Shown in pieces: positions 1 through 6,377 of a stretch of 6,377 bases of DNA. A program made the position numbers and the translations under genes. This DNA comes from Enterobacteriaceae endosymbiont of Donacia provostii. GTDB lineage: Bacteria > Pseudomonadota > Gammaproteobacteria > Enterobacterales > Enterobacteriaceae. The first letter of the stretch is position 1. The number at the start of each line of letters is the position of its first letter. The stretch spans positions 1 through 6,377 of the forward strand of contig NZ_CP046207.1 of NCBI RefSeq assembly GCF_012570145.1, given 5' to 3'. The notes under the pieces were generated by a model. It was not told the origin of the DNA. It worked only from the letters and a program-made list of their open reading frames with translations, and searched no databases.

Positions 1-87
1 ATGAAAAAAAAAATCTACTACATCTTTAAAGAGATAAAAAAGATAATCTTATTTTATGTAATTATTAATCTGTTAGCTACACAAGCT
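1..87 (+). other. Predicted Sec signal peptide of the adhesin (cleavage after TQA, residue 29)
   Basis: MKKKIYYIFKEIKK (basic n-region), IILFYVIINLLA (hydrophobic core), then T-Q-A / I, a small-x-small cleavage motif. Judged by eye only. Confidence 0.55.
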
Positions 88-2829
88 ATCTATACTAAAA
101 CAATAATTAAGAATAAAATTATAAAAAAAGAAAAACAAAATGTTAACTTCTATGTGAACAAAAATAGAATTAATAATCTTAGAAAAGAAATTTATCTAAA
201 TGTATTAGAAAATCAATATAAATCATTCTTAATATTAATTAGAAAAAAATTAGAATCTAAAAATAATAAAAATACAAATATTTTGATAAATGAAGAAACC
301 AATAATGTTTTGCAAAACTTGTTTTTTAAAAAATCTTTAGAAGAAGATGAAATAAAATGGAGTAATATAAAGAAAAATTATCATAGTAATTATTCAGGAA
401 GATCAAGTTATATTTCAGACATATATAAAACAAATATACAAAGTAATGATGATTCTGAGAATAATATTTTTAATTTATTTTTTTTAGCGAAAAAAAAATT
501 CTCTAATAGAGAAGTATTTATAGAAAATATAAAGTCTAACATTTTAAATAGATTCAATTTAAAACTTAATAACATAGTTAAATTAACTATGTATAGGATA
601 TTTGAAAAATTTCAGTTAAATGGAAAATCTTTAGTTAAGATAAATTTAAATGATAATTTGAATCTGAATAATTCAGAACTAGATTTATTATTTCCTTTTA
701 TAGAAAAGGAAGATTATATTCTTTTTATACAAAATAGTATACATAGAACAGACAATAGAAATCAAAATAACTTAGGTTTTGGATTGAGAAAACTATCATT
801 AGACAATAAGTACTTATTAGGAATAAATAGTTTTTTAGACTATGATATATCTTTAGATAATACAAGAGTTAGTTTAGGTTTAGAATTATGGGGTGAGTTT
901 TTTAAAATTAGTGCTAATACATATTATGGATTAAGTAGATGGTGGCATCAAAATAAAAGTTTTTTATATACGGAAAAAAATAATAATTTATATGATAATA
1001 TAAATGATGATGAATTTTTTTCAAAACCTGCTGCAGGATGGGATATTAATGCAGAAGGGTATTTTTTAAAGTTACCAGAAATATTATTTAAATTAAGTTA
1101 TACAAAATATTATGGAAACATAGGATTTAAACAAAGTGATTTTTTAGAAAAACATGAAAAATTATTTTCTCCTTCAATTTATTCATTTAGTATTAAATAC
1201 ACTCCTATTCCTGTTTTATCTTTTGTTATAGAAAAAATAAAAACTAATTATGGTAAAGATAATATTCAATTTGGAGGGTATTTAAATCTAAAATTAAATT
1301 CATCTTTTAGTGATCAAATACATAATAAAGTACATAATATATTTTCATCATCTTATGATAATAGATATGATTTTGTGAAAAGAGATAATAATATTGTTTT
1401 AAAATATAGAAAAAAATTTTTGATTAAATTATCAACAAAAAAAGAAATTTCAGGATATCCTAAAAGTGAACATTCTTTAGGACTAATAATTAATTCTGTA
1501 AACAAAAATATTAATATAAGTTTTCATAGTCAAGATAGTTTTTTTAGAAATGGAGGTTCTATGAAAATTCTTAATGGTGACTACATAATTAAATTACCTA
1601 GTTATGATTTTAAAAAAACACAAAATAATTCTTATAAAGTTAAAGTAATAGCTTATGATGCATTAAGTAACCGTAATGATATTTCTTATATCAAAATTAA
1701 TGTTATTTATCCATTAATAGATAAAAATAATTCTAATTTTAGTATTTACCCTAATTATATATTAATAAATTCCGAAGAGGCAAAAGTTACTTTTGATGCT
1801 AGAGATGTAAATAACGAACCCTTAATAAATATAAAAAATATTAGTTTTGTAGTTGAAAATGGTAATTTTCCTCGTCTTTATAATATAAAAATTAGTAAAG
1901 TACATGAAAATCCTAAAGGAACTTATACTGCAATTCTTAAAAGTTTAACTCCTGGAACAGCTTTAATAAGAGTAAAGATTAATGATGTTTGTAATAAGGA
2001 AATTGGTGCAAAAATTCATGTTACTAATGCATATACAGATAATATGCAAGTTGTAACTACTCCTTCTAATTTATTGTTGAAGGTAAATGAATCTTTTCAT
2101 TTTCTGATAAAAGTTTTTGATAAACATGGTAAGGGTATACCTTCTTCTGAAGTTAAAATAACTAAAGTAATAGCTATGGATCGAGCAGGATATGTTAGAG
2201 AAGATAATGGAGATTATCATTTTGATGATTTAACTAATAATACATCTTATGATGGTAATCATTTTATATCTTATACAAATAAAGATGGGGAATTAAAAGT
2301 TAAAGTTTCTGATCCTCATGGTATTGGAGTACGTACTTTTTTTAAAATTAGTGCAGACGATTGTGTTAGTAAAGAAATTTCTGTAGTTTTTTCTGTTCCT
2401 ACTAGTCCTAAAAGTGTATATGCTAAAATGTATGGTCATATGCCAGATTTTATATCTGTAAATAATTTGAAATTTTATAGACCTACATTATCTACTGAAC
2501 GTACAGGAGATCAAGTAAATCATTATTTAAATGAAGATTGGGCAAAATTTACTTGGTATAATGCTGAAGAATTTTGTAAATCAAGAAATTTAAGATTACC
2601 TACTAAAGAAGAACTATTAGATTTCTATCATATCCATTCAGGAAATGATTTATTAAGTAATTATGGGTGGCCTATAGTTGATAGATTTAATAGTGCTTGG
2701 AGTTCTTCTGCTATAAGAAATATGTATTTTCATGATCCTTTACATTTTTATGTTGATTTTTTAAATGATAAAATGGATAAAGAAATTGTTAGTGATGCCT
2801 TAGTTGTTTTTTGTGTTCAAGATAGTTAA
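1..2829 (+). CDS. Intimin/invasin-family inverse autotransporter adhesin (942 aa): signal peptide, N/K-rich low-complexity linker, inverse-autotransporter beta-barrel, about 3 bacterial Ig-like domains, C-terminal C-type-lectin-like domain
   Basis: Uninterrupted 942-codon ORF starting at the ATG at position 1. Residues ~258-470 (LGFGLRKL...LLGINSFLDYDISLDNTRVSLGLELWGEFFKISANTYYGLSRWW...KPAAGWDINAEGYFLKLPEILFKLSYTKYYGN...RDNNIVLKYRK; nt ~772-1410) match the conserved intimin/invasin beta-domain pattern as I recall it (NxFfDyd..R.slG.E.w.d.l.lsaN.Y..lS.W...ERpA.GfDi.a.gyLP..P.L..kl.y..YyG). Residues ~472-797 show Big-domain-like strand patterning (YKVKVIAYDALSNRNDISYIKINV; GTYTAILKSLTPGTALIRVKIND; TNKDGELKVKVSDPHG). 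Residues ~800-942 (nt 2398-2826) align with the intimin D3 / invasin D5 lectin-like domain: FTWYNAEEFCKSRNLRLPTKEELLDFY against intimin VTYNDAVNTCKNFGGKLPSSQNELENVF, and C-terminal VVFCVQDS against AYATCVK. No LysM-like segment is visible. Confidence 0.85.
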   Translation: MKKKIYYIFKEIKKIILFYVIINLLATQAIYTKTIIKNKIIKKEKQNVNFYVNKNRINNLRKEIYLNVLENQYKSFLILIRKKLESKNNKNTNILINEETNNVLQNLFFKKSLEEDEIKWSNIKKNYHSNYSGRSSYISDIYKTNIQSNDDSENNIFNLFFLAKKKFSNREVFIENIKSNILNRFNLKLNNIVKLTMYRIFEKFQLNGKSLVKINLNDNLNLNNSELDLLFPFIEKEDYILFIQNSIHRTDNRNQNNLGFGLRKLSLDNKYLLGINSFLDYDISLDNTRVSLGLELWGEFFKISANTYYGLSRWWHQNKSFLYTEKNNNLYDNINDDEFFSKPAAGWDINAEGYFLKLPEILFKLSYTKYYGNIGFKQSDFLEKHEKLFSPSIYSFSIKYTPIPVLSFVIEKIKTNYGKDNIQFGGYLNLKLNSSFSDQIHNKVHNIFSSSYDNRYDFVKRDNNIVLKYRKKFLIKLSTKKEISGYPKSEHSLGLIINSVNKNINISFHSQDSFFRNGGSMKILNGDYIIKLPSYDFKKTQNNSYKVKVIAYDALSNRNDISYIKINVIYPLIDKNNSNFSIYPNYILINSEEAKVTFDARDVNNEPLINIKNISFVVENGNFPRLYNIKISKVHENPKGTYTAILKSLTPGTALIRVKINDVCNKEIGAKIHVTNAYTDNMQVVTTPSNLLLKVNESFHFLIKVFDKHGKGIPSSEVKITKVIAMDRAGYVREDNGDYHFDDLTNNTSYDGNHFISYTNKDGELKVKVSDPHGIGVRTFFKISADDCVSKEISVVFSVPTSPKSVYAKMYGHMPDFISVNNLKFYRPTLSTERTGDQVNHYLNEDWAKFTWYNAEEFCKSRNLRLPTKEELLDFYHIHSGNDLLSNYGWPIVDRFNSAWSSSAIRNMYFHDPLHFYVDFLNDKMDKEIVSDALVVFCVQDS

Positions 2830-2918
2830 CTTAATTTTTTTTGATTAAAGACAATTTTTATTTAAAATAAATGTCATATAATATTCATATATTTATTATA
2901 AATATGAATTAATTTAAA

Positions 2919-3011
2919 ATGAATAATTTATTTTATAGGCATGTTAAAAATATTTTTTTTAATAGTATATTTATAATTACAGTTTTATTTTTTCATACAC
3001 ATGTATATGCA
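2919..3011 (+). other. Predicted Sec signal peptide of the polygalacturonase (cleavage after VYA, residue 31)
   Basis: MNNLFYRHVKN (basic n-region), IFFNSIFIITVLFF (hydrophobic core), then H-V-Y-A / QDT. Similarity to mature PehA starts shortly downstream. Judged by eye only. Confidence 0.6.
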
Positions 3012-4199
3012 CAAGATACACGTGCTGTTCATGAACCAGTAATACCTAAAGTATGTAAAATATTAATAGCAGATAATAAAAAAGATTTTACTAATGAAAT
3101 TAATAATGCTATTGTAGGTTGTGCTAAACAACATAAGATAATTAGCTTATTACCTTCCAGTAAAGGAGATAATTATTTTTTTTCAGGACCTATTATTATT
3201 CCATCTTTTGGTGGAATTTTAATTAATAAGGGAGTTATACTTTCAGCAATTAATGATCCTAACTTATATGATAAGGGTAATCAAATATGTGGAGAGTTAG
3301 ATAATATAGGTAAAGGATGTAATCCCTTTATAACTTTAAAAGGGGAAAATAGTGGTTTATATGGAGAAGGATATATTGACGGTCAAGGGGGTAGTATATT
3401 AAAAAATAAGAAATATACTTGGTGGCAATTAGCTACAGAAGCAAAAATTAAACATAAAAAACAAAATAATCCTCATTTAATTGATATTAAGTCAGGAAAA
3501 AATATATCTATATACAAATTACATTTAATAAATTCTCCCAATTTTCATATTGTACCCTATAATACAAATGGTTTAACTATTTGGGGTATAGAAATAAATA
3601 CTCCTTCTGATGCTCGTAATACTGATGGTATAGATCCCTCTTCTTCTCAAAATATAACAATTACACATTCTAATATTAATACAGGAGATGATAATATAGC
3701 TATTAAAGCTGGTAAAAATGGGCCATCTAAACATATATCTATAATAGATAATAATTTTGGTCATGGACATGGTATGTCAATAGGAAGTGAAACAAATAGT
3801 GGAGTTAGTAATGTTCTTGTTAAAAATTTAACATTACAAAATGCAACTAATGGAATTAGAATTAAAAGTGATATTACTAGAGGGGGATTAGTTACTGATA
3901 TTTATTATGAAAATGTTTGTATTTTTAATGTTAAAAATCCTATTATTTTAGATACTCATTATAGTGGCAAAATAAGTGAAGATAAAAATATACCAAGATT
4001 TAAAAATATTTTCTTCCAAAATGTTGAAGTTTTAACTCCTGGAGTATTAAAATTTGATGGATTAGATGAAGATAATATGATTGAGGTTTTTGTAAATAAT
4101 CTTCATGTAAGAAGTGGATCTTCATGGGTTAAAAATAATGTTATAATTCATGGTAATATTGATAATATAATCGATATAGATATTTGTAGGAAGTATTAA
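2919..4199 (+). CDS. pehA: Secreted endo-polygalacturonase, glycoside hydrolase family 28 (PehA-like pectinase), 426 aa
   Basis: All four GH28 signature motifs are in frame: NTDG at nt 3618-3629 (N234), GDD at 3684-3692 (G256-D258), GHGMSIGS from 3765, RIK at 3858-3866 (R314). Long collinear similarity to Pectobacterium PehA as recalled: FFSGPIIIPSFGGILINKGVIL / FLSGPLSLPSGVSLLIDKGVTL; CGELDNIGKGCNPFIT / CGVVDKNGKGCDAFIT; GYIDGQGG / GTIDGQGG; WWQLATEAKIKHKKQNNPHLI / WWELAADAKVKKLKQNTPRLI; LINSPNFHIV / LINSPNFHVV; ARNTDGIDP and TGDDNIAIKA are identical. The paired cysteines C46/C68 and C124/C134 are retained. An N-terminal signal peptide is present. Confidence 0.93.
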   Translation: MNNLFYRHVKNIFFNSIFIITVLFFHTHVYAQDTRAVHEPVIPKVCKILIADNKKDFTNEINNAIVGCAKQHKIISLLPSSKGDNYFFSGPIIIPSFGGILINKGVILSAINDPNLYDKGNQICGELDNIGKGCNPFITLKGENSGLYGEGYIDGQGGSILKNKKYTWWQLATEAKIKHKKQNNPHLIDIKSGKNISIYKLHLINSPNFHIVPYNTNGLTIWGIEINTPSDARNTDGIDPSSSQNITITHSNINTGDDNIAIKAGKNGPSKHISIIDNNFGHGHGMSIGSETNSGVSNVLVKNLTLQNATNGIRIKSDITRGGLVTDIYYENVCIFNVKNPIILDTHYSGKISEDKNIPRFKNIFFQNVEVLTPGVLKFDGLDEDNMIEVFVNNLHVRSGSSWVKNNVIIHGNIDNIIDIDICRKY

Positions 4200-4855
4200 T
4201 TTTTTTTTAAAACTAGAAAAGTAGTTTCATTATTTTTTTTATTTGATATATTTTTTTTTATAATATATAGATTATAAAATCTAGCAGCTATTTCATTTCC
4301 AATAGCTGCTAGATTATCTTGTGAAGAAGAATTTTTAATGAAATTCATAGCAAAAGATGTACTTGAACAGTATTTTATTTCCCATAGTGGATGTTCTTTT
4401 ATAAAAGAACTACATTGTTTTAATGGTTCTTTATGGCTATAGATTTTTTTTATTTTATTTAAAAAAATATTTTTTTTTTTGGTAACTAAACAGTTTTTAA
4501 TGGGTAACTTTATAGTTGTTTTTATTTTTACATAAGTACTATTTTTCTTTAAGTATTTTAATACTTCTTTAATAATTCCTGTATGATTATTTATTATAGG
4601 AACTATAGCTATTTGAATTATACCTGTTTTAATATGTAAAAAAATTTCATTAAAATTATGACAACTTACATTAATAATTTTTTTTTTAAAAAAAAAATTA
4701 TTAATGTAAGTTAATACAGCTAGATGAGAATAACTATATAATGGACCTAAAAAAGCAATGATCTTTTCTTTATTTTGATTATTTAAATTTAAAAAGATAT
4801 TTTTTATATCACTTATATTATTATTAATAATAATATTGTTATTTTTATTTAACAT
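4196..4855 (-). CDS. pheA: Prephenate dehydratase, stand-alone PDT domain (219 aa): a pheA P-protein derivative lacking both the chorismate mutase and the ACT regulatory domains
   Basis: Collinear with the PDT domain of E. coli PheA (about residues 100-285) as recalled: [19 protein letters not shown] / [36 protein letters not shown] / [50 protein letters not shown] / [47 protein letters not shown] / [22 protein letters not shown] / NFTRFVVL. The Thr equivalent to catalytic T278 is kept. Only 31 N/I-rich residues precede the PDT domain, and the stop comes 3 codons after FLVL, where the ACT domain would begin. Confidence 0.87.
   Translation of the reverse strand: [219 protein letters not shown]
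4278..4315. repeat. Perfect 15-bp inverted repeat with an 8-nt loop inside the 3' part of pheA (possible terminator for the convergent pectinase transcript, or a protein-binding palindrome)
   Basis: AATCTAGCAGCTATT (4278-4292), loop TCATTTCC (4293-4300), AATAGCTGCTAGATT (4301-4315). The arms are exact reverse complements. Each arm contains TAGCAGCTA, which matches the iteron core TAGCAGGTA at 8 of 9 positions. The function is not established. Confidence 0.4.
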
Positions 4856-4915: not shown

Positions 4916-5779
4916 TCATTTTTTAATAACATGTACAATATCATTTTTATCTATCCAACAACTCCATCCTGTAACTAATGAAACTTCAAATAAAGATTTT
5001 TTTAGAATTTGTCTAAACTTCCATAAAATAATAATTTTACTTCCACATAAGTTTTTTAAAGTTATTACCTTATAATATAAGGGGACATTATGAGTACAAT
5101 AAAAACAATGTATCCATTGCGATAATGGTCTTTTTTTTAGCTTTTTTCTTTCTTTTAAAGAAATTATAGTCCAAATAGATTGAGTAAAGAAAGATATTAT
5201 ATTTTTATTTAAAAAAATAACATTTTTTTTAGTTTTATCATTTCTATACCATTCTTGTAACAGATGACCTATATAGAAATAATCTCTATAATTAATTTCT
5301 ATACTACAGATAGATAACCTAATTAAAGATGATTTTAACCATTCATAGTCTTTTTTACCTGTTTTTCTATCTATGGATTTTAAAAAAGAATAAGATGAAA
5401 AAATAACTTTTTCTCCAAATGGTACTTTTGAAAATCGATACAAACATTCTAACCATACATCTAAATCTGATTGATCTAAACTTTCTCCAGTAAATTTTAT
5501 AATAAAATCATTTAGTGATGTTTTTAAGATATTTCTTTCATATCTTCTATATCCTTTTTTTAAAATACCAAATAAAGAACTACGTAAGATAATATTAGGT
5601 ACAGCTCTTCTATTTTTTGAGATATTTGGAAAAAAATTTTGTATATTAATACTTTTTTTTTTTCTCAAACATAGTTCTTTTTTTTTTTCTTTTTTTTTTG
5701 TTTTTTTTTTATTTATAACATTACTTTTATTAATGAGTAAACGAATTCTTTCGTAAAAATTTTTTTTTTTTTTATACAT
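4916..5779 (-). CDS. trfA: TrfA-family plasmid replication initiator (287 aa, about the size of RK2 TrfA-33)
   Basis: Collinear with RK2 TrfA as recalled: RRAVPNIILRSSLFG / MRAMPNDTARSALFT; IKFTGESLDQSDLDVWLECLYRFSKVPFGEKVIFSSYSFLKSI / ITYTGVELRADDDELVWQQVLEYAKRTPIGEPITFTFYELCQDL; LIRLSICSIEI / LSRLQATAMGF; LKNLCGS / FRLMCGS; C-terminal LVTGWSCWIDKNDIVHVIKK / LVEHAWVNDDLVHCKR. It ends in TGA (plus strand 4916-4918) at the same relative position as RK2 TrfA. An iteron array lies upstream. Confidence 0.88.
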   Translation of the reverse strand: MYKKKKNFYERIRLLINKSNVINKKKTKKKEKKKELCLRKKKSINIQNFFPNISKNRRAVPNIILRSSLFGILKKGYRRYERNILKTSLNDFIIKFTGESLDQSDLDVWLECLYRFSKVPFGEKVIFSSYSFLKSIDRKTGKKDYEWLKSSLIRLSICSIEINYRDYFYIGHLLQEWYRNDKTKKNVIFLNKNIISFFTQSIWTIISLKERKKLKKRPLSQWIHCFYCTHNVPLYYKVITLKNLCGSKIIILWKFRQILKKSLFEVSLVTGWSCWIDKNDIVHVIKK

Positions 5780-6065
5780 ATAAAATATATTGATTTAAAA
5801 TATTCTAATTTCAAATCAAAAAATGGATAATTTTTATAGTATTTTAAATATACTGTAATTTATAGAGTAATACTATTTTTTTTCACTCTCCGTAAAAGTT
5901 TAAAACAATATTATTTTCTACTAAAGCTATATATGAATTAAATAAAAGATTTATTATTAATAAAAACATCCTATAAAAATAATAATTAAGGTTAATTATA
6001 TCTTTTTTTTTTTATATGTCAAGATAATTTAATAAAATTTTTAAAAATCATATTTTATTCTAATT

Positions 6066-6216
6066 CAGAATAGCAGGGTAGTAAAACTCGGGATAGCAGG
6101 TAGTAAAACTCGGGATAGCAGGTAGTAAAACTCGGGATAGCAGGTAGTAACTCGGGATAGCAGGTAGTAAAACTCGGGATAGCAGGTAGTAAAACTCGGG
6201 ATAGCAGGTAGTAAAA
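6066..6216. repeat. Iteron array (putative TrfA binding sites, core of oriV): 5 identical 22-bp units, one 20-bp variant and one degenerate leading copy
   Basis: CTCGGGATAGCAGGTAGTAAAA occurs at 6087-6108, 6109-6130, 6151-6172, 6173-6194 and 6195-6216. A 20-bp variant lacking two A is at 6131-6150. A degenerate copy, CAGAATAGCAGGGTAGTAAAA, is at 6066-6086. Units abut head-to-tail with no spacers. Each unit has 10 G/C in 22 nt, far above the surrounding DNA. The 22-bp periodicity equals that of RK2 oriV iterons (17-mers on a 22-bp repeat). The array lies about 290 bp from the trfA start. Confidence 0.88.
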
Positions 6217-6377
6217 AGGTGAAGAAAAATCATAAACAAAAAAAATTTATATAATCCCTTTATAATCATTTTTTTTTAAAAAAAAAAATTGAATATTAAA
6301 ACAAACTAATGTAATATAAGAAAAGTATATGAAGTAAATAGAAAATTGTTTATTATTATTTTAAATAAAATTAAGTA
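6217..6377. other. A+T-rich tract next to the iterons: candidate DNA unwinding element, and across the presumed circular junction the promoter region of the adhesin gene
   Basis: Almost pure A/T, with no ORF. Contains a T9A11 tract at 6269-6288. Its position directly beside the iterons matches the usual layout of iteron origins. There is no experimental or motif-level proof, and I could not identify repeated 13-mers. Confidence 0.35.

What the first reader, a model, noticed from the sequence alone, without database searches (positions are those of the whole stretch)
2919..4199. Plasmid-borne, secreted PehA-type polygalacturonase with an intact catalytic signature: a host-serving digestive enzyme
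NTDG, GDD, GHG and RIK motifs, both N-terminal cysteine pairs and a signal peptide are all preserved, so the enzyme is probably active and exported. Established knowledge: some herbivorous-beetle symbionts with tiny genomes (Candidatus Stammera capleta in tortoise beetles, Candidatus Macropleicola in reed beetles) supply GH28 pectinases to their hosts. This window fits that biology, but I cannot assign the organism without a database search. Sitting on a presumably multicopy replicon would raise gene dosage, like the Buchnera amino-acid plasmids. The export route is an open question. Pectobacterium uses a type II system for pectinases, and a reduced genome may lack one.
Basis: partly seen in the sequence, partly recalled or inferred. 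Interest (0 to 1): 0.7.

Follow-up and report, generated by a model that had tools for sequence, protein, structure and literature searches.

The report
Known reed-beetle symbiont plasmid pectinase
The gene is a real and apparently functional pectin-digesting enzyme, carried on the small plasmid of the bacterial symbiont of the reed beetle Donacia provostii, but this exact plasmid and its role in beetle leaf-feeding were published in 2020, so the finding is correct but not new.

Summary
Window 2919-4199 (+) encodes a 426-aa GH28 polygalacturonase. The NTDG, GDD, GHG and RIK motifs are intact, the four N-terminal-half cysteines are present, and there is a typical Sec signal peptide (predicted cleavage VYA|QD after residue 31). 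The predicted beta-helix superposes on Pectobacterium PehA (1BHE) at TM 0.97 and rmsd 1.4 Å.

The window is the complete 6377-bp plasmid of the "Enterobacteriaceae endosymbiont of Donacia provostii" (Macropleicola): all four proteins match exactly, and the length matches Table 1 of Reis et al. 2020 (Nat Commun 11:2964). That paper describes the plasmid-encoded PG, shows the Macroplea mutica orthologue is an active enzyme, and links loss of the PG to host-plant switches.

The gene is under purifying selection (dN/dS about 0.3). The export question stays open. The published chromosome gene table lists Sec, signal peptidase I and BamA, but no type II secretion genes and almost no Tol-Pal/Lpp names.

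Three side observations may be new:
- A conserved TTTTTGAT box sits about 41 bp upstream of the likely PG transcription start, which is FNR/CRP class II geometry.
- An intact invasin-like inverse autotransporter of about 900 aa is present on all eight plasmids examined and is not discussed in either paper I read.
- The "PheA" gene contains only the prephenate dehydratase core.

Verdict: already known, low interest.

The parts
2919..4199 (+). Plasmid-encoded GH28 endo-polygalacturonase (pPG), 426 aa including the signal peptide. The stop codon is at 4197-4199.
   Evidence: ORF. Pfam PF00295 at 195.6 bits. 1BHE at E 1.2e-98. AF2 model with TM 0.97 to 1BHE. Exact match to WP_168821994.1. dN/dS about 0.3 against six orthologues.
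2919..3011 (+). Sec-type signal peptide, residues 1-31 (MNNLFYRHVKNIFFNSIFIITVLFFHTHVYA), with predicted SPase I cleavage before Q32.
   Evidence: n/h/c regions and the -3/-1 rule checked by script, and conserved across 23 homologues. The cleavage point aligns with the mature N-terminus of PehA. The AF2 model shows a helix at 2-25 followed by low confidence at 26-29.
3618..3629 (+). NTDG motif (N234-G237). D236 is equivalent to catalytic Asp202 of PehA.
   Evidence: Invariant in A1 and A3. The numbering comes from the 1BHE alignment.
3684..3692 (+). GDD motif (G256-D257-D258), equivalent to PehA Asp223/Asp224.
   Evidence: Invariant in A1 and A3.
3765..3773 (+). GHG motif (G283-H284-G285).
   Evidence: Invariant in A1 and A3.
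3858..3866 (+). RIK motif (R314-I315-K316), the substrate-binding residues.
   Evidence: Invariant in A1 and A3.
2838..2854 (+). Conserved upstream box TTTTTGAT-TAAA-GACAA. It is either a candidate FNR/CRP-family half-site or the -35 element of the PG promoter.
   Evidence: There are 8 invariant columns in the alignment of 7 pPG plasmids. In 0 of 5000 shuffles was a G/C-containing 8-mer shared. The box is absent after the IAT gene in the PG-less P. pusilla plasmid and absent upstream of Stammera PGs.
2877..2882 (+). Candidate -10 hexamer TATAAT of the PG promoter.
   Evidence: All 7 plasmids have a hexamer matching at least 5 of 6 positions at offset 35-36 from TTGAT, which puts the box centre at -40.5/-41.5.
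1..2829 (+). Invasin/intimin-like inverse autotransporter, 942 aa, lying upstream of the PG on the same strand (context).
   Evidence: Pfam IAT_beta, Invasin_D3, BIg21 and InvE_AD. PDB invasin 4e1t at 1e-30. The ORF is intact in 8 plasmids.
4196..4855 (-). Prephenate dehydratase core (219 aa), convergent with the PG. The two stop codons overlap.
   Evidence: Pfam PDT. It covers only positions 95-285 of the 386-position PheA model NF007910.
4916..5779 (-). TrfA replication initiator (287 aa).
   Evidence: Pfam TrfA at 35.7 bits against a cutoff of 22. 50-54% identity to TrfA of Arsenophonus, Aeromonas and Pantoea plasmids.
6070..6216 (.). Iteron array, 6.7 copies of a 22-bp unit (ATAGCAGGTAGTAAAACTCGGG). 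This is the putative oriV.
   Evidence: TRF score 271 with 96% matches. Repeat family D1.

Best explanation
Window 2919-4199 encodes the plasmid-borne endo-polygalacturonase (pPG) of the obligate symbiont of the reed beetle Donacia provostii ('Candidatus Macropleicola' lineage).

Shown by sequence:
- It is a PehA-type GH28 beta-helix enzyme with the complete catalytic set (D236, D257, D258, H284, R314, K316).
- It has an N-terminal Sec signal peptide.
- It has been kept under purifying selection.
- It sits on a 6.4-kb TrfA/iteron replicon, next to an invasin-like adhesin gene and a prephenate dehydratase gene.

[quoted passage not shown] It is present only in symbionts of beetles that eat pectin-rich Nymphaeales or Alismatales leaves.

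Inferred mechanism:
1. The preprotein is exported by SecYEG/SecA.
2. It is cut by signal peptidase I after Ala31.
3. It folds in the periplasm.
4. It reaches the Malpighian-tubule lumen and gut without a type II secretion system. The likely routes are leakage or vesiculation from an outer membrane that lacks Tol-Pal/Lpp anchoring, or symbiont lysis.
5. Transcription probably starts about 30 bp upstream of the ATG, from a promoter with a conserved TTGAT box centred near -41. That box may be the target of the FNR-like regulator found only in pectinase-bearing symbionts.
For: - Identity: all four window proteins match the D. provostii symbiont plasmid records exactly, on a contig of 6377 bp. Table 1 of PMC7289800 gives the same length.
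- Synteny: IAT-PG-PDT-TrfA is in the same order in the plasmids of the D. piscatrix, D. versicolorea, D. tomentosa, Neohaemonia and Macroplea symbionts.
- Enzyme: Pfam GH28, 1BHE at E 1e-98, invariant catalytic motifs, and an AF2 model with pLDDT 91.9 and TM 0.97 to 1BHE.
- Selection: dN/dS is 0.29-0.41 against six orthologues, and the PG is the second most conserved gene on the plasmid.
- Activity of orthologues: recombinant Mmut-pPG (56% identical) hydrolyses PGA to oligomers, and guts of species carrying only pPG degrade PGA. pPG is up-regulated in D. versicolorea adults.
- Export: the signal peptide is conserved. The chromosome table lists SecY/E/A, signal peptidase I and BamA in all 26 genomes. 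It has no entry for 'secretion', 'gspD', 'disulfide' or 'dsbA' among the terms I searched, and the only 'Tol' entry is a TolQ-family protein in 3 genomes.
- Promoter: the TTGAT box and a -10 hexamer keep fixed spacing in 7 of 7 plasmids. FNR is present in exactly 11 genomes and was proposed as the GH28 regulator, though no binding site was given.
Against: - No activity, localisation or expression data exist for the D. provostii protein itself. The closest tested orthologue is only 56% identical, and the Donacia crassipes pPG could not be recovered in active form.
- The absence of T2SS, Tol-Pal and Dsb rests on text searches of a published annotation table, not on a sequence search of the chromosome, which I could not fetch.
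- The signal peptide was judged by rules, not by a trained predictor.
- The right half of the putative FNR site matches the consensus at only 3 of 5 positions. TTGATT could equally be an ordinary -35 hexamer: a -10-like hexamer at a spacer of 15-16 nt exists in 3 of 7 plasmids.
- Promoter-like matches in this AT-rich DNA are no more frequent than chance.
- Plasmid copy number has not been measured here.
Confidence: 0.85

Rival explanations
1. The PG is exported as in Pectobacterium: Sec to the periplasm, then a type II (Out/Gsp) secretion system across the outer membrane.
For: The nearest characterised homologue, PehA, is a T2SS substrate (Palomäki et al. 2002, title cited in PMC7949064). The fold is nearly identical to PehA.
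Against: The complete chromosome orthologue table for all 26 Donaciinae symbionts has no entry containing 'secretion' or 'gspD'. The genomes are only 0.45-0.52 Mb. The related Stammera genomes are reported to lack secretion machinery apart from SecA.
Confidence: 0.05
2. The gene is a decaying or functionally inert relic in this lineage: the ORF is intact by chance or only recently relaxed, and pectin digestion is carried by the second, chromosome-encoded PG.
For: D. provostii belongs to the clade that also has a chromosomal PG. Its pPG is unusually divergent, only 77% identical to the cluster of its nearest relatives. Endosymbiont proteins evolve fast.
Against: A 426-codon ORF is kept open at about 26% GC. 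Every catalytic and substrate-binding residue is invariant. dN/dS is about 0.3, lower than for PDT and IAT on the same plasmid. pPG was lost only in Poales feeders. The model is confident and PehA-like.
Confidence: 0.05
3. The enzyme is an exo-acting or oligogalacturonide-specific hydrolase rather than an endo-PG.
For: GH28 contains both modes, and exo-PGs appear among the weaker structural hits (3jur, 2uve). Gut extracts release monomers.
Against: The best structural and sequence match by far is the endo-PG PehA. There are no large insertions (rmsd 1.4 Å over 382 columns), whereas the exo-PG matches have rmsd above 5 Å. Mmut-pPG produces dimers, trimers and larger oligomers, and oligomer breakdown is attributed to the chromosomal PG.
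Confidence: 0.05

Closest known systems
Plasmid-encoded polygalacturonases (pPG) of Donaciinae symbionts ('Ca. Macropleicola'), Reis et al. 2020, Nat Commun 11:2964
   Same: This is one of them. The gene is at the same position between the IAT and PDT genes on the TrfA plasmid. The protein is 56-77% identical to the orthologues. The motifs and the signal-peptide cleavage site are the same.
   Different: Nothing differs in kind. The D. provostii copy is the most divergent within the Nymphaeales-feeding Donacia clade, at 77% identity to the cluster of its relatives that groups at 90%. It has not been assayed itself.
Polygalacturonase of 'Candidatus Stammera capleta' (tortoise-beetle symbiont)
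   Same: It is a GH28 of the same PehA-like subfamily, 52-57% identical. It is usually on a 4.5-8 kb plasmid and serves host digestion. Plasmid copy number has been shown to track host stage. Stammera lacks secretion systems.
   Different: The replicon is different: the one Stammera plasmid examined carries a RepA_C-type fragment, not TrfA. It has no IAT or PDT neighbours. The TTGAT upstream box is absent.
PehA endo-polygalacturonase of Pectobacterium carotovorum (PDB 1BHE)
   Same: 47% identity over the whole mature protein. The catalytic residues and the four cysteines align. The predicted fold superposes at TM 0.97. Both have a Sec signal peptide.
   Different: PehA is a virulence factor of a free-living pathogen and is secreted by the Out T2SS. 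Here no T2SS is annotated, and the enzyme serves an insect host.
Buchnera pLeu/pTrp amino-acid plasmids
   Same: Host-beneficial genes have been moved to a small plasmid in an obligate insect symbiont. Dosage regulation through copy number has been proposed.
   Different: The cargo here is a digestive enzyme plus one Phe-pathway step and an adhesin. The replicon is the TrfA/iteron type. Copy number is unmeasured.

Membership tests
Glycoside hydrolase family 28 (polygalacturonase, PehA-like) | Match to the family profile above the curated threshold | tested here: met
   PF00295 at 195.6 bits against a cutoff of 22.9, covering residues 142-403.
Glycoside hydrolase family 28 (polygalacturonase, PehA-like) | Conserved NTD / G(Q)DD / G(S)HG / RIK motifs with three catalytic Asp residues | tested here: met
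   N234-T235-D236, G256-D257-D258, G283-H284-G285 and R314-I315-K316 are invariant in 12- and 24-sequence alignments that include 1BHE.
Glycoside hydrolase family 28 (polygalacturonase, PehA-like) | Right-handed parallel beta-helix fold | tested here: met
   AF2 model with pLDDT 91.9 and pTM 0.88. Foldseek top hit is 1BHE with TM 0.97 (target-normalised) and rmsd 1.4 Å. All the following hits are GH28 enzymes.
Glycoside hydrolase family 28 (polygalacturonase, PehA-like) | Hydrolysis of polygalacturonic acid (endo mode) | not testable with these tools
   Shown only for the 56%-identical M. mutica orthologue and for gut extracts of other species.
Sec-dependent secretory protein (SPase I substrate) | N-terminal signal peptide with a basic n-region, a hydrophobic h-region, and small residues at -3/-1 | tested here: met
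   R7 and K10; h-region mean KD 3.24; V-Y-A before Q32; pattern conserved in the homologues. No trained predictor was available.
Sec-dependent secretory protein (SPase I substrate) | Host encodes SecYEG/SecA and signal peptidase I | tested here: met
   A text search of Supplementary Data 1 of PMC7289800 found SecY, SecE, SecA and signal peptidase I listed for all 26 genomes. This is a literature check, not a sequence search.
Type II secretion substrate (as PehA in Pectobacterium) | Host encodes a Gsp/Out type II secretion system | tested here: not met
   The complete chromosome orthologue table has no entry containing 'secretion' or 'gspD'. The chromosome sequence itself could not be fetched.
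TrfA/iteron (RK2-like) plasmid replicon | TrfA initiator gene | tested here: met
   PF07042 at 35.7 bits against a cutoff of 22. 50-54% identity to annotated TrfA proteins of Arsenophonus, Aeromonas and Pantoea plasmids.
TrfA/iteron (RK2-like) plasmid replicon | Array of directly repeated iterons near trfA | tested here: met
   6.7 copies of a 22-bp unit at 6070-6216, 96% matches.
TrfA/iteron (RK2-like) plasmid replicon | DnaA boxes at the origin | tested here: not met
   No TTATCCACA within 1 mismatch in 5780-6377. The single one-mismatch hit lies inside the IAT gene, and that is no more than chance.
Donaciinae-symbiont (Macropleicola) plasmid | Exact identity to a deposited record, and conserved gene order | tested here: met
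   Four exact protein matches on a 6377-bp contig. Table 1 of PMC7289800 agrees. Synteny with seven other plasmids.
FNR/CRP class II activator-dependent promoter | Palindromic TTGAT-N4-ATCAA site | tested here: inconclusive
   The left half TTGAT is invariant in 7 of 7 plasmids. The right half is GACAA here (3 of 5) and varies between species.
FNR/CRP class II activator-dependent promoter | Site centred near -41.5 relative to the transcription start, with a weak -35 | tested here: inconclusive
   A -10 hexamer at offset 35-36 in 7 of 7 plasmids gives a centre of -40.5/-41.5, if the start lies 7 nt after the -10. No transcription start has been mapped.

The most novel reading that the evidence does not exclude
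The conserved TTTTTGAT box at 2838-2845, with its -10 hexamer 29-30 bp downstream of the TTGATT hexamer, may be the operator of the FNR-like regulator that co-occurs with pectinases in these 0.45-Mb genomes. That would give a concrete cis-element for regulated expression of a host-serving enzyme in a genome-eroded symbiont. The enzyme would then leave the cell without any dedicated outer-membrane secretion system, through an envelope that lacks Tol-Pal/Lpp. In addition, the plasmid's largest gene is an invasin-like inverse autotransporter that is conserved in all lineages examined and is not discussed in the papers I could search. It may mediate the symbiont's switch between extracellular and intracellular life.
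Probability: 0.3. Interest if true: 0.45.

Novelty: already known. Interest (0 to 1): 0.15.

Why it matters
As stated, the finding re-discovers a published result. Reed-beetle symbionts carry a plasmid-encoded pectinase that lets adult beetles eat pectin-rich leaves, and loss of the gene tracks host-plant shifts to grasses and sedges.

The re-examination confirms that a tool-free reading of raw sequence identified both the enzyme and the biology correctly. It adds little new knowledge about the enzyme.

Three points remain open:
- How a periplasmic enzyme leaves a cell with no type II secretion system.
- Whether the conserved TTGAT box is the missing link to the FNR-like regulator.
- What the conserved invasin-like gene next door does.

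Each can be tested with existing RNA-seq data and simple biochemistry.

Tried and rejected
- Megablast of the whole window against PLSDB found only partial matches of about 72% to Stammera PG genes. The D. provostii record is not in that collection, so identification came from exact protein look-up instead.
- A scan of genome contigs for the PG found nothing. I therefore could not read the symbiont chromosome, search it for T2SS, Tol-Pal, Dsb or FNR genes, or inspect the region upstream of the chromosomal PG.
- The DnaA-box search was no better than chance.
- Rfam and tRNA scans were empty.
- The sigma-70 scan gave 66 sites against 63 expected, and only 1 terminator-like site was found, so generic scans are uninformative in this AT-rich DNA.
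- I asked whether the Stammera and Macropleicola PG plasmids share a replicon. In the one Stammera plasmid examined they do not: it has RepA_C, this one has TrfA.
- I looked for the TTGAT box upstream of the Stammera PG and the L004 PG. It is absent from both.
- A literature search for the PehA disulfide map and catalytic numbering gave nothing usable. The disulfide pairing is therefore stated only as conservation of the four aligned cysteines.
It was repeated with A3.
Full report
**Observation.** The window has four long ORFs:
- 1-2829 (+), 942 aa
- 2919-4199 (+), 426 aa
- 4196-4855 (-), 219 aa
- 4916-5779 (-), 287 aa

Overall GC is about 15-29%. The ORF named in the finding matches Pfam Glyco_hydro_28 at 195.6 bits against a cutoff of 22.9. 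It matches the crystal-structure sequence of Erwinia carotovora PehA (1BHE) at E 1.2e-98 over residues 33-408.

In alignments with 11 and 23 homologues, these motifs are invariant: N234-T235-D236-G237, G256-D257-D258, G283-H284-G285 and R314-I315-K316. By the 1BHE alignment, D236, D257 and D258 correspond to PehA Asp202, Asp223 and Asp224. That these are the catalytic residues is established knowledge of GH28, which I recall rather than tested here. C46, C68, C124 and C134 align with the four cysteines in the N-terminal half of PehA.

Residues 1-31 have a basic n-region, a strongly hydrophobic core and V-Y-A before Q32. The same architecture and an alanine at -1 recur in the orthologues. The predicted mature end coincides with the first residues of the mature PehA chain.

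An AlphaFold2 model built on the 24-sequence alignment has pLDDT 91.9. It superposes on 1BHE with TM 0.97 and rmsd 1.4 Å, and all further top hits are GH28 enzymes.

**What the window is.** All four proteins are found by exact look-up on one 6377-bp contig of the "Enterobacteriaceae endosymbiont of Donacia provostii" plasmid. The PG is QJC33916.1 / WP_168821994.1, and the locus tags are GJT93_02235-02250. Reis et al. 2020 (PMC7289800) list this symbiont with a 453,917-bp chromosome and a 6377-bp plasmid of 21.7% GC. The window is therefore that complete plasmid.

It has a TrfA initiator whose nearest relatives outside the beetle symbionts are TrfA proteins of Arsenophonus, Aeromonas and Pantoea plasmids at 50-54% identity. 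It also has 6.7 tandem 22-bp iterons at 6070-6216. A perfect TTGACA-16-TATAAT promoter points from the iteron side towards trfA.

The gene order IAT-PG-PDT-TrfA is the same in the plasmids of the D. piscatrix, D. versicolorea, D. tomentosa, Neohaemonia nigricornis, Macroplea appendiculata and M. mutica symbionts. The P. pusilla plasmid has the same order without the PG.

**What is already known.** Reis et al. 2020 report:
- A plasmid-encoded PG occurs in 8 Donacia, 2 Macroplea and 1 Neohaemonia symbionts.
- It groups with the Stammera PG.
- Gut homogenates of species with only this PG degrade polygalacturonic acid.
- The recombinant M. mutica enzyme cuts PGA into dimers, trimers and larger oligomers.
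- The plasmid PG was lost three times, always in Poales feeders.

By elimination, D. provostii is one of the five Donacia species that also have a chromosomal PG. The three Donacia species with only the plasmid PG are D. dentata and D. versicolorea, which the paper names, and by my inference D. tomentosa.

A 2025 study shows that the plasmid PG is up-regulated in D. versicolorea adults. It proposes an FNR-like factor as its regulator, because that factor is present only in pectinase-bearing symbionts. In Stammera, plasmid copy number per chromosome rises after larval eclosion, and Stammera genomes lack secretion machinery apart from SecA.

**Independent checks added here.** Pairwise Nei-Gojobori estimates give dN/dS of 0.29-0.41 for the PG against six orthologues. 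That is lower than for PDT (0.37-0.55) and IAT (0.37-0.77), and higher than TrfA in most pairs (0.17-0.38). dS is near saturation in this AT-rich DNA, so these ratios are probably overestimates. The gene is clearly constrained.

The D. provostii protein is 77% identical to the cluster holding the D. piscatrix protein, 69% to D. versicolorea, 62% to Neohaemonia, 56% to Macroplea, and 52-57% to the Stammera PGs.

**Export.** I could not fetch the chromosome, because the genome collection gave no match. I therefore searched the paper's complete chromosome orthologue table (Supplementary Data 1, not truncated).
- It lists SecY, SecE, SecA, signal peptidase I, BamA (YaeT) and OmpA.
- It has no entry containing 'secretion', 'gspD', 'disulfide' or 'dsbA'.
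- A search for 'Tol' and 'lipoprotein' returns only a MotA/TolQ/ExbB-family protein in three genomes, a hemin-binding lipoprotein and lipoprotein signal peptidase.

So by annotation there is no T2SS, no Tol-Pal, no Lpp, no TolC and no Dsb system. E. coli tol-pal and lpp mutants leak periplasmic proteins and hyper-vesiculate; this is established knowledge, not tested here. The most economical model is therefore Sec export and signal-peptide cleavage, followed by passive release (leakage, vesicles or lysis). This step is inferred.

**Promoter.** The 89-bp spacer between the IAT stop and the PG start is only 9% GC, yet it contains TTTTTGAT at 2838-2845. In an alignment of the seven PG-bearing plasmids, these eight columns are the longest invariant block. 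No G/C-containing 8-mer was shared in any of 5000 composition-preserving shuffles. That control ignores shared ancestry.

In all seven plasmids a -10-like hexamer lies 35-36 nt after the start of TTGAT. It is a perfect TATAAT in four of them, here at 2877-2882. If transcription starts 7 nt after the -10, a 14-bp site starting at TTGAT would be centred at -40.5/-41.5. That is the geometry of class II FNR/CRP-dependent promoters, and TTGAT is the FNR half-site (established knowledge).

The right half-site is poor: GACAA matches 3 of 5 positions. A simpler reading, in which TTGATT is an ordinary -35 element, is possible, and a suitably spaced -10 exists in 3 of 7 plasmids.

The box is missing after the IAT gene in the PG-less P. 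pusilla plasmid. It is also missing upstream of a Stammera PG and of a Stammera-like chromosomal PG. I rate the FNR reading at about 0.3.

**Other things on the plasmid.** ORF 1-2829 is an inverse autotransporter. It has an IAT beta-barrel (residues 204-463), Ig-like domains and a C-terminal InvE adhesion domain. It resembles the invasin and intimin barrels (4e1t at 1e-30, 4e1s) and a 'putative invasin' passenger (5n40).

It is an intact ORF of 887-971 aa in all eight plasmids examined, although it is the fastest-evolving gene on the plasmid. The main texts of the two Donaciinae-symbiont papers do not contain any of the terms I searched: adhesin, intimin, invasin or autotransporter in both papers; adhesion in both; hypothetical and outer membrane in Reis et al. 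2020; inverse in the 2025 study. None of the papers listed mentions Macropleicola at all. GenBank annotated only a 261-aa fragment.

The PDT ORF covers only positions 95-285 of the 386-position bifunctional PheA model. It therefore lacks both the chorismate mutase and the ACT regulatory domains, although the paper calls it bifunctional. Chorismate mutase is available from chromosomal TyrA in all 26 genomes. Loss of the ACT domain would remove feedback inhibition by phenylalanine (inference).

**Verdict.** Both the observation and the interpretation are right, but the object is a published member of a published family. Novelty is 'already known', and interest is low (0.15). The residual value lies in the candidate regulatory box, the secretion-system-free export problem and the undiscussed invasin-like gene.

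Noticed in passing
window 1-2829 (+): This 942-aa invasin/intimin-like inverse autotransporter (beta-barrel, Ig-like domains, C-terminal InvE adhesion domain) takes up 44% of the plasmid. It is an intact ORF in all 8 Donaciinae-symbiont plasmids examined, despite being the fastest-evolving gene (dN/dS 0.37-0.77). The main texts of the two Donaciinae papers I read contain none of the terms I searched for it, and GenBank annotated only a 261-aa fragment. It is a candidate for host-cell attachment or entry in a symbiont that alternates between lumen and cytoplasm.
   Followed up: partly
window 4196-4855 (-): The plasmid 'PheA' is a 219-aa prephenate dehydratase core only. It matches positions 95-285 of the 386-position bifunctional model, so it has no chorismate mutase domain and no ACT (feedback) domain, although the 2020 paper calls it bifunctional CM/PDT. 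Chromosomal TyrA can supply the mutase. Loss of ACT suggests feedback-insensitive phenylalanine production.
   Followed up: partly
window 2838-2882 (+): A TTTTTGAT box invariant in 7 of 7 PG-bearing plasmids has a -10 hexamer at a fixed 35-36 nt offset, which places the box centre near -41 (FNR/CRP class II geometry). It is absent from the PG-less P. pusilla plasmid and from the regions upstream of Stammera PGs. It could be the cis-element for the FNR-like factor proposed in 2025 to regulate GH28.
   Followed up: partly
window 5995-6216: There are 6.7 tandem 22-bp iterons (ATAGCAGGTAGTAAAACTCGGG) at 6070-6216. A perfect sigma-70 consensus (TTGACA-16-TATAAT) on the minus strand at 6022->5995 faces trfA. 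No DnaA box was found. The spurious 69-aa ORF at 6060-6269 is simply the iteron array translated.
   Followed up: partly
window 4196-4199: The PG and PDT genes converge and their stop codons overlap, with no terminator-like hairpin between them. The same overlap occurs in the D. piscatrix plasmid. Convergent read-through and antisense transcription are therefore likely.
   Followed up: no
L002:2931-4214 (D. piscatrix symbiont plasmid, protein P0006): In the D. piscatrix-cluster PG, the first conserved cysteine (C46 here) is replaced by glycine, leaving its presumed partner C68 unpaired. No Dsb protein appears in the published chromosome table, so the N-terminal disulfide may be dispensable in these symbionts.
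   Followed up: no
L003:2971-2997 (D. versicolorea symbiont plasmid): The called start of the D. versicolorea PG adds 9 residues (MLNNYELNK) that no orthologue has, and it overlaps the conserved -10 hexamer. The true start is probably the Met that aligns with M1 of the others, 27 nt downstream.
   Followed up: no
L004:8186-11269 (Logan SRR27871537, 478,069-bp contig): A chromosome-sized AT-rich contig carries a PG adjacent to a pectate lyase (Pectate_lyase_4). The PG is 55% identical to this one and 62% identical to a Stammera PG. It is probably a large-genome Stammera-like symbiont with chromosomally integrated pectinases.
   Followed up: partly
L009 (Stammera plasmid pStAm1, CP144849.1): This Stammera PG plasmid carries a RepA_C-type replicase fragment, a rhamnogalacturonan-lyase-like remnant and a permease fragment, but no TrfA, IAT or PDT. 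Closely related PG genes therefore sit on unrelated small replicons in the two beetle-symbiont lineages.
   Followed up: partly
protein search hits P0040-P0100: Dozens of stick-insect (Phasmatodea) GH28 genes are 45-52% identical to this bacterial enzyme. That is about as close as the enterobacterial PGs (42-51% in the same list), and it is consistent with the known horizontal transfer of gammaproteobacterial pectinases into phasmid genomes.
   Followed up: no
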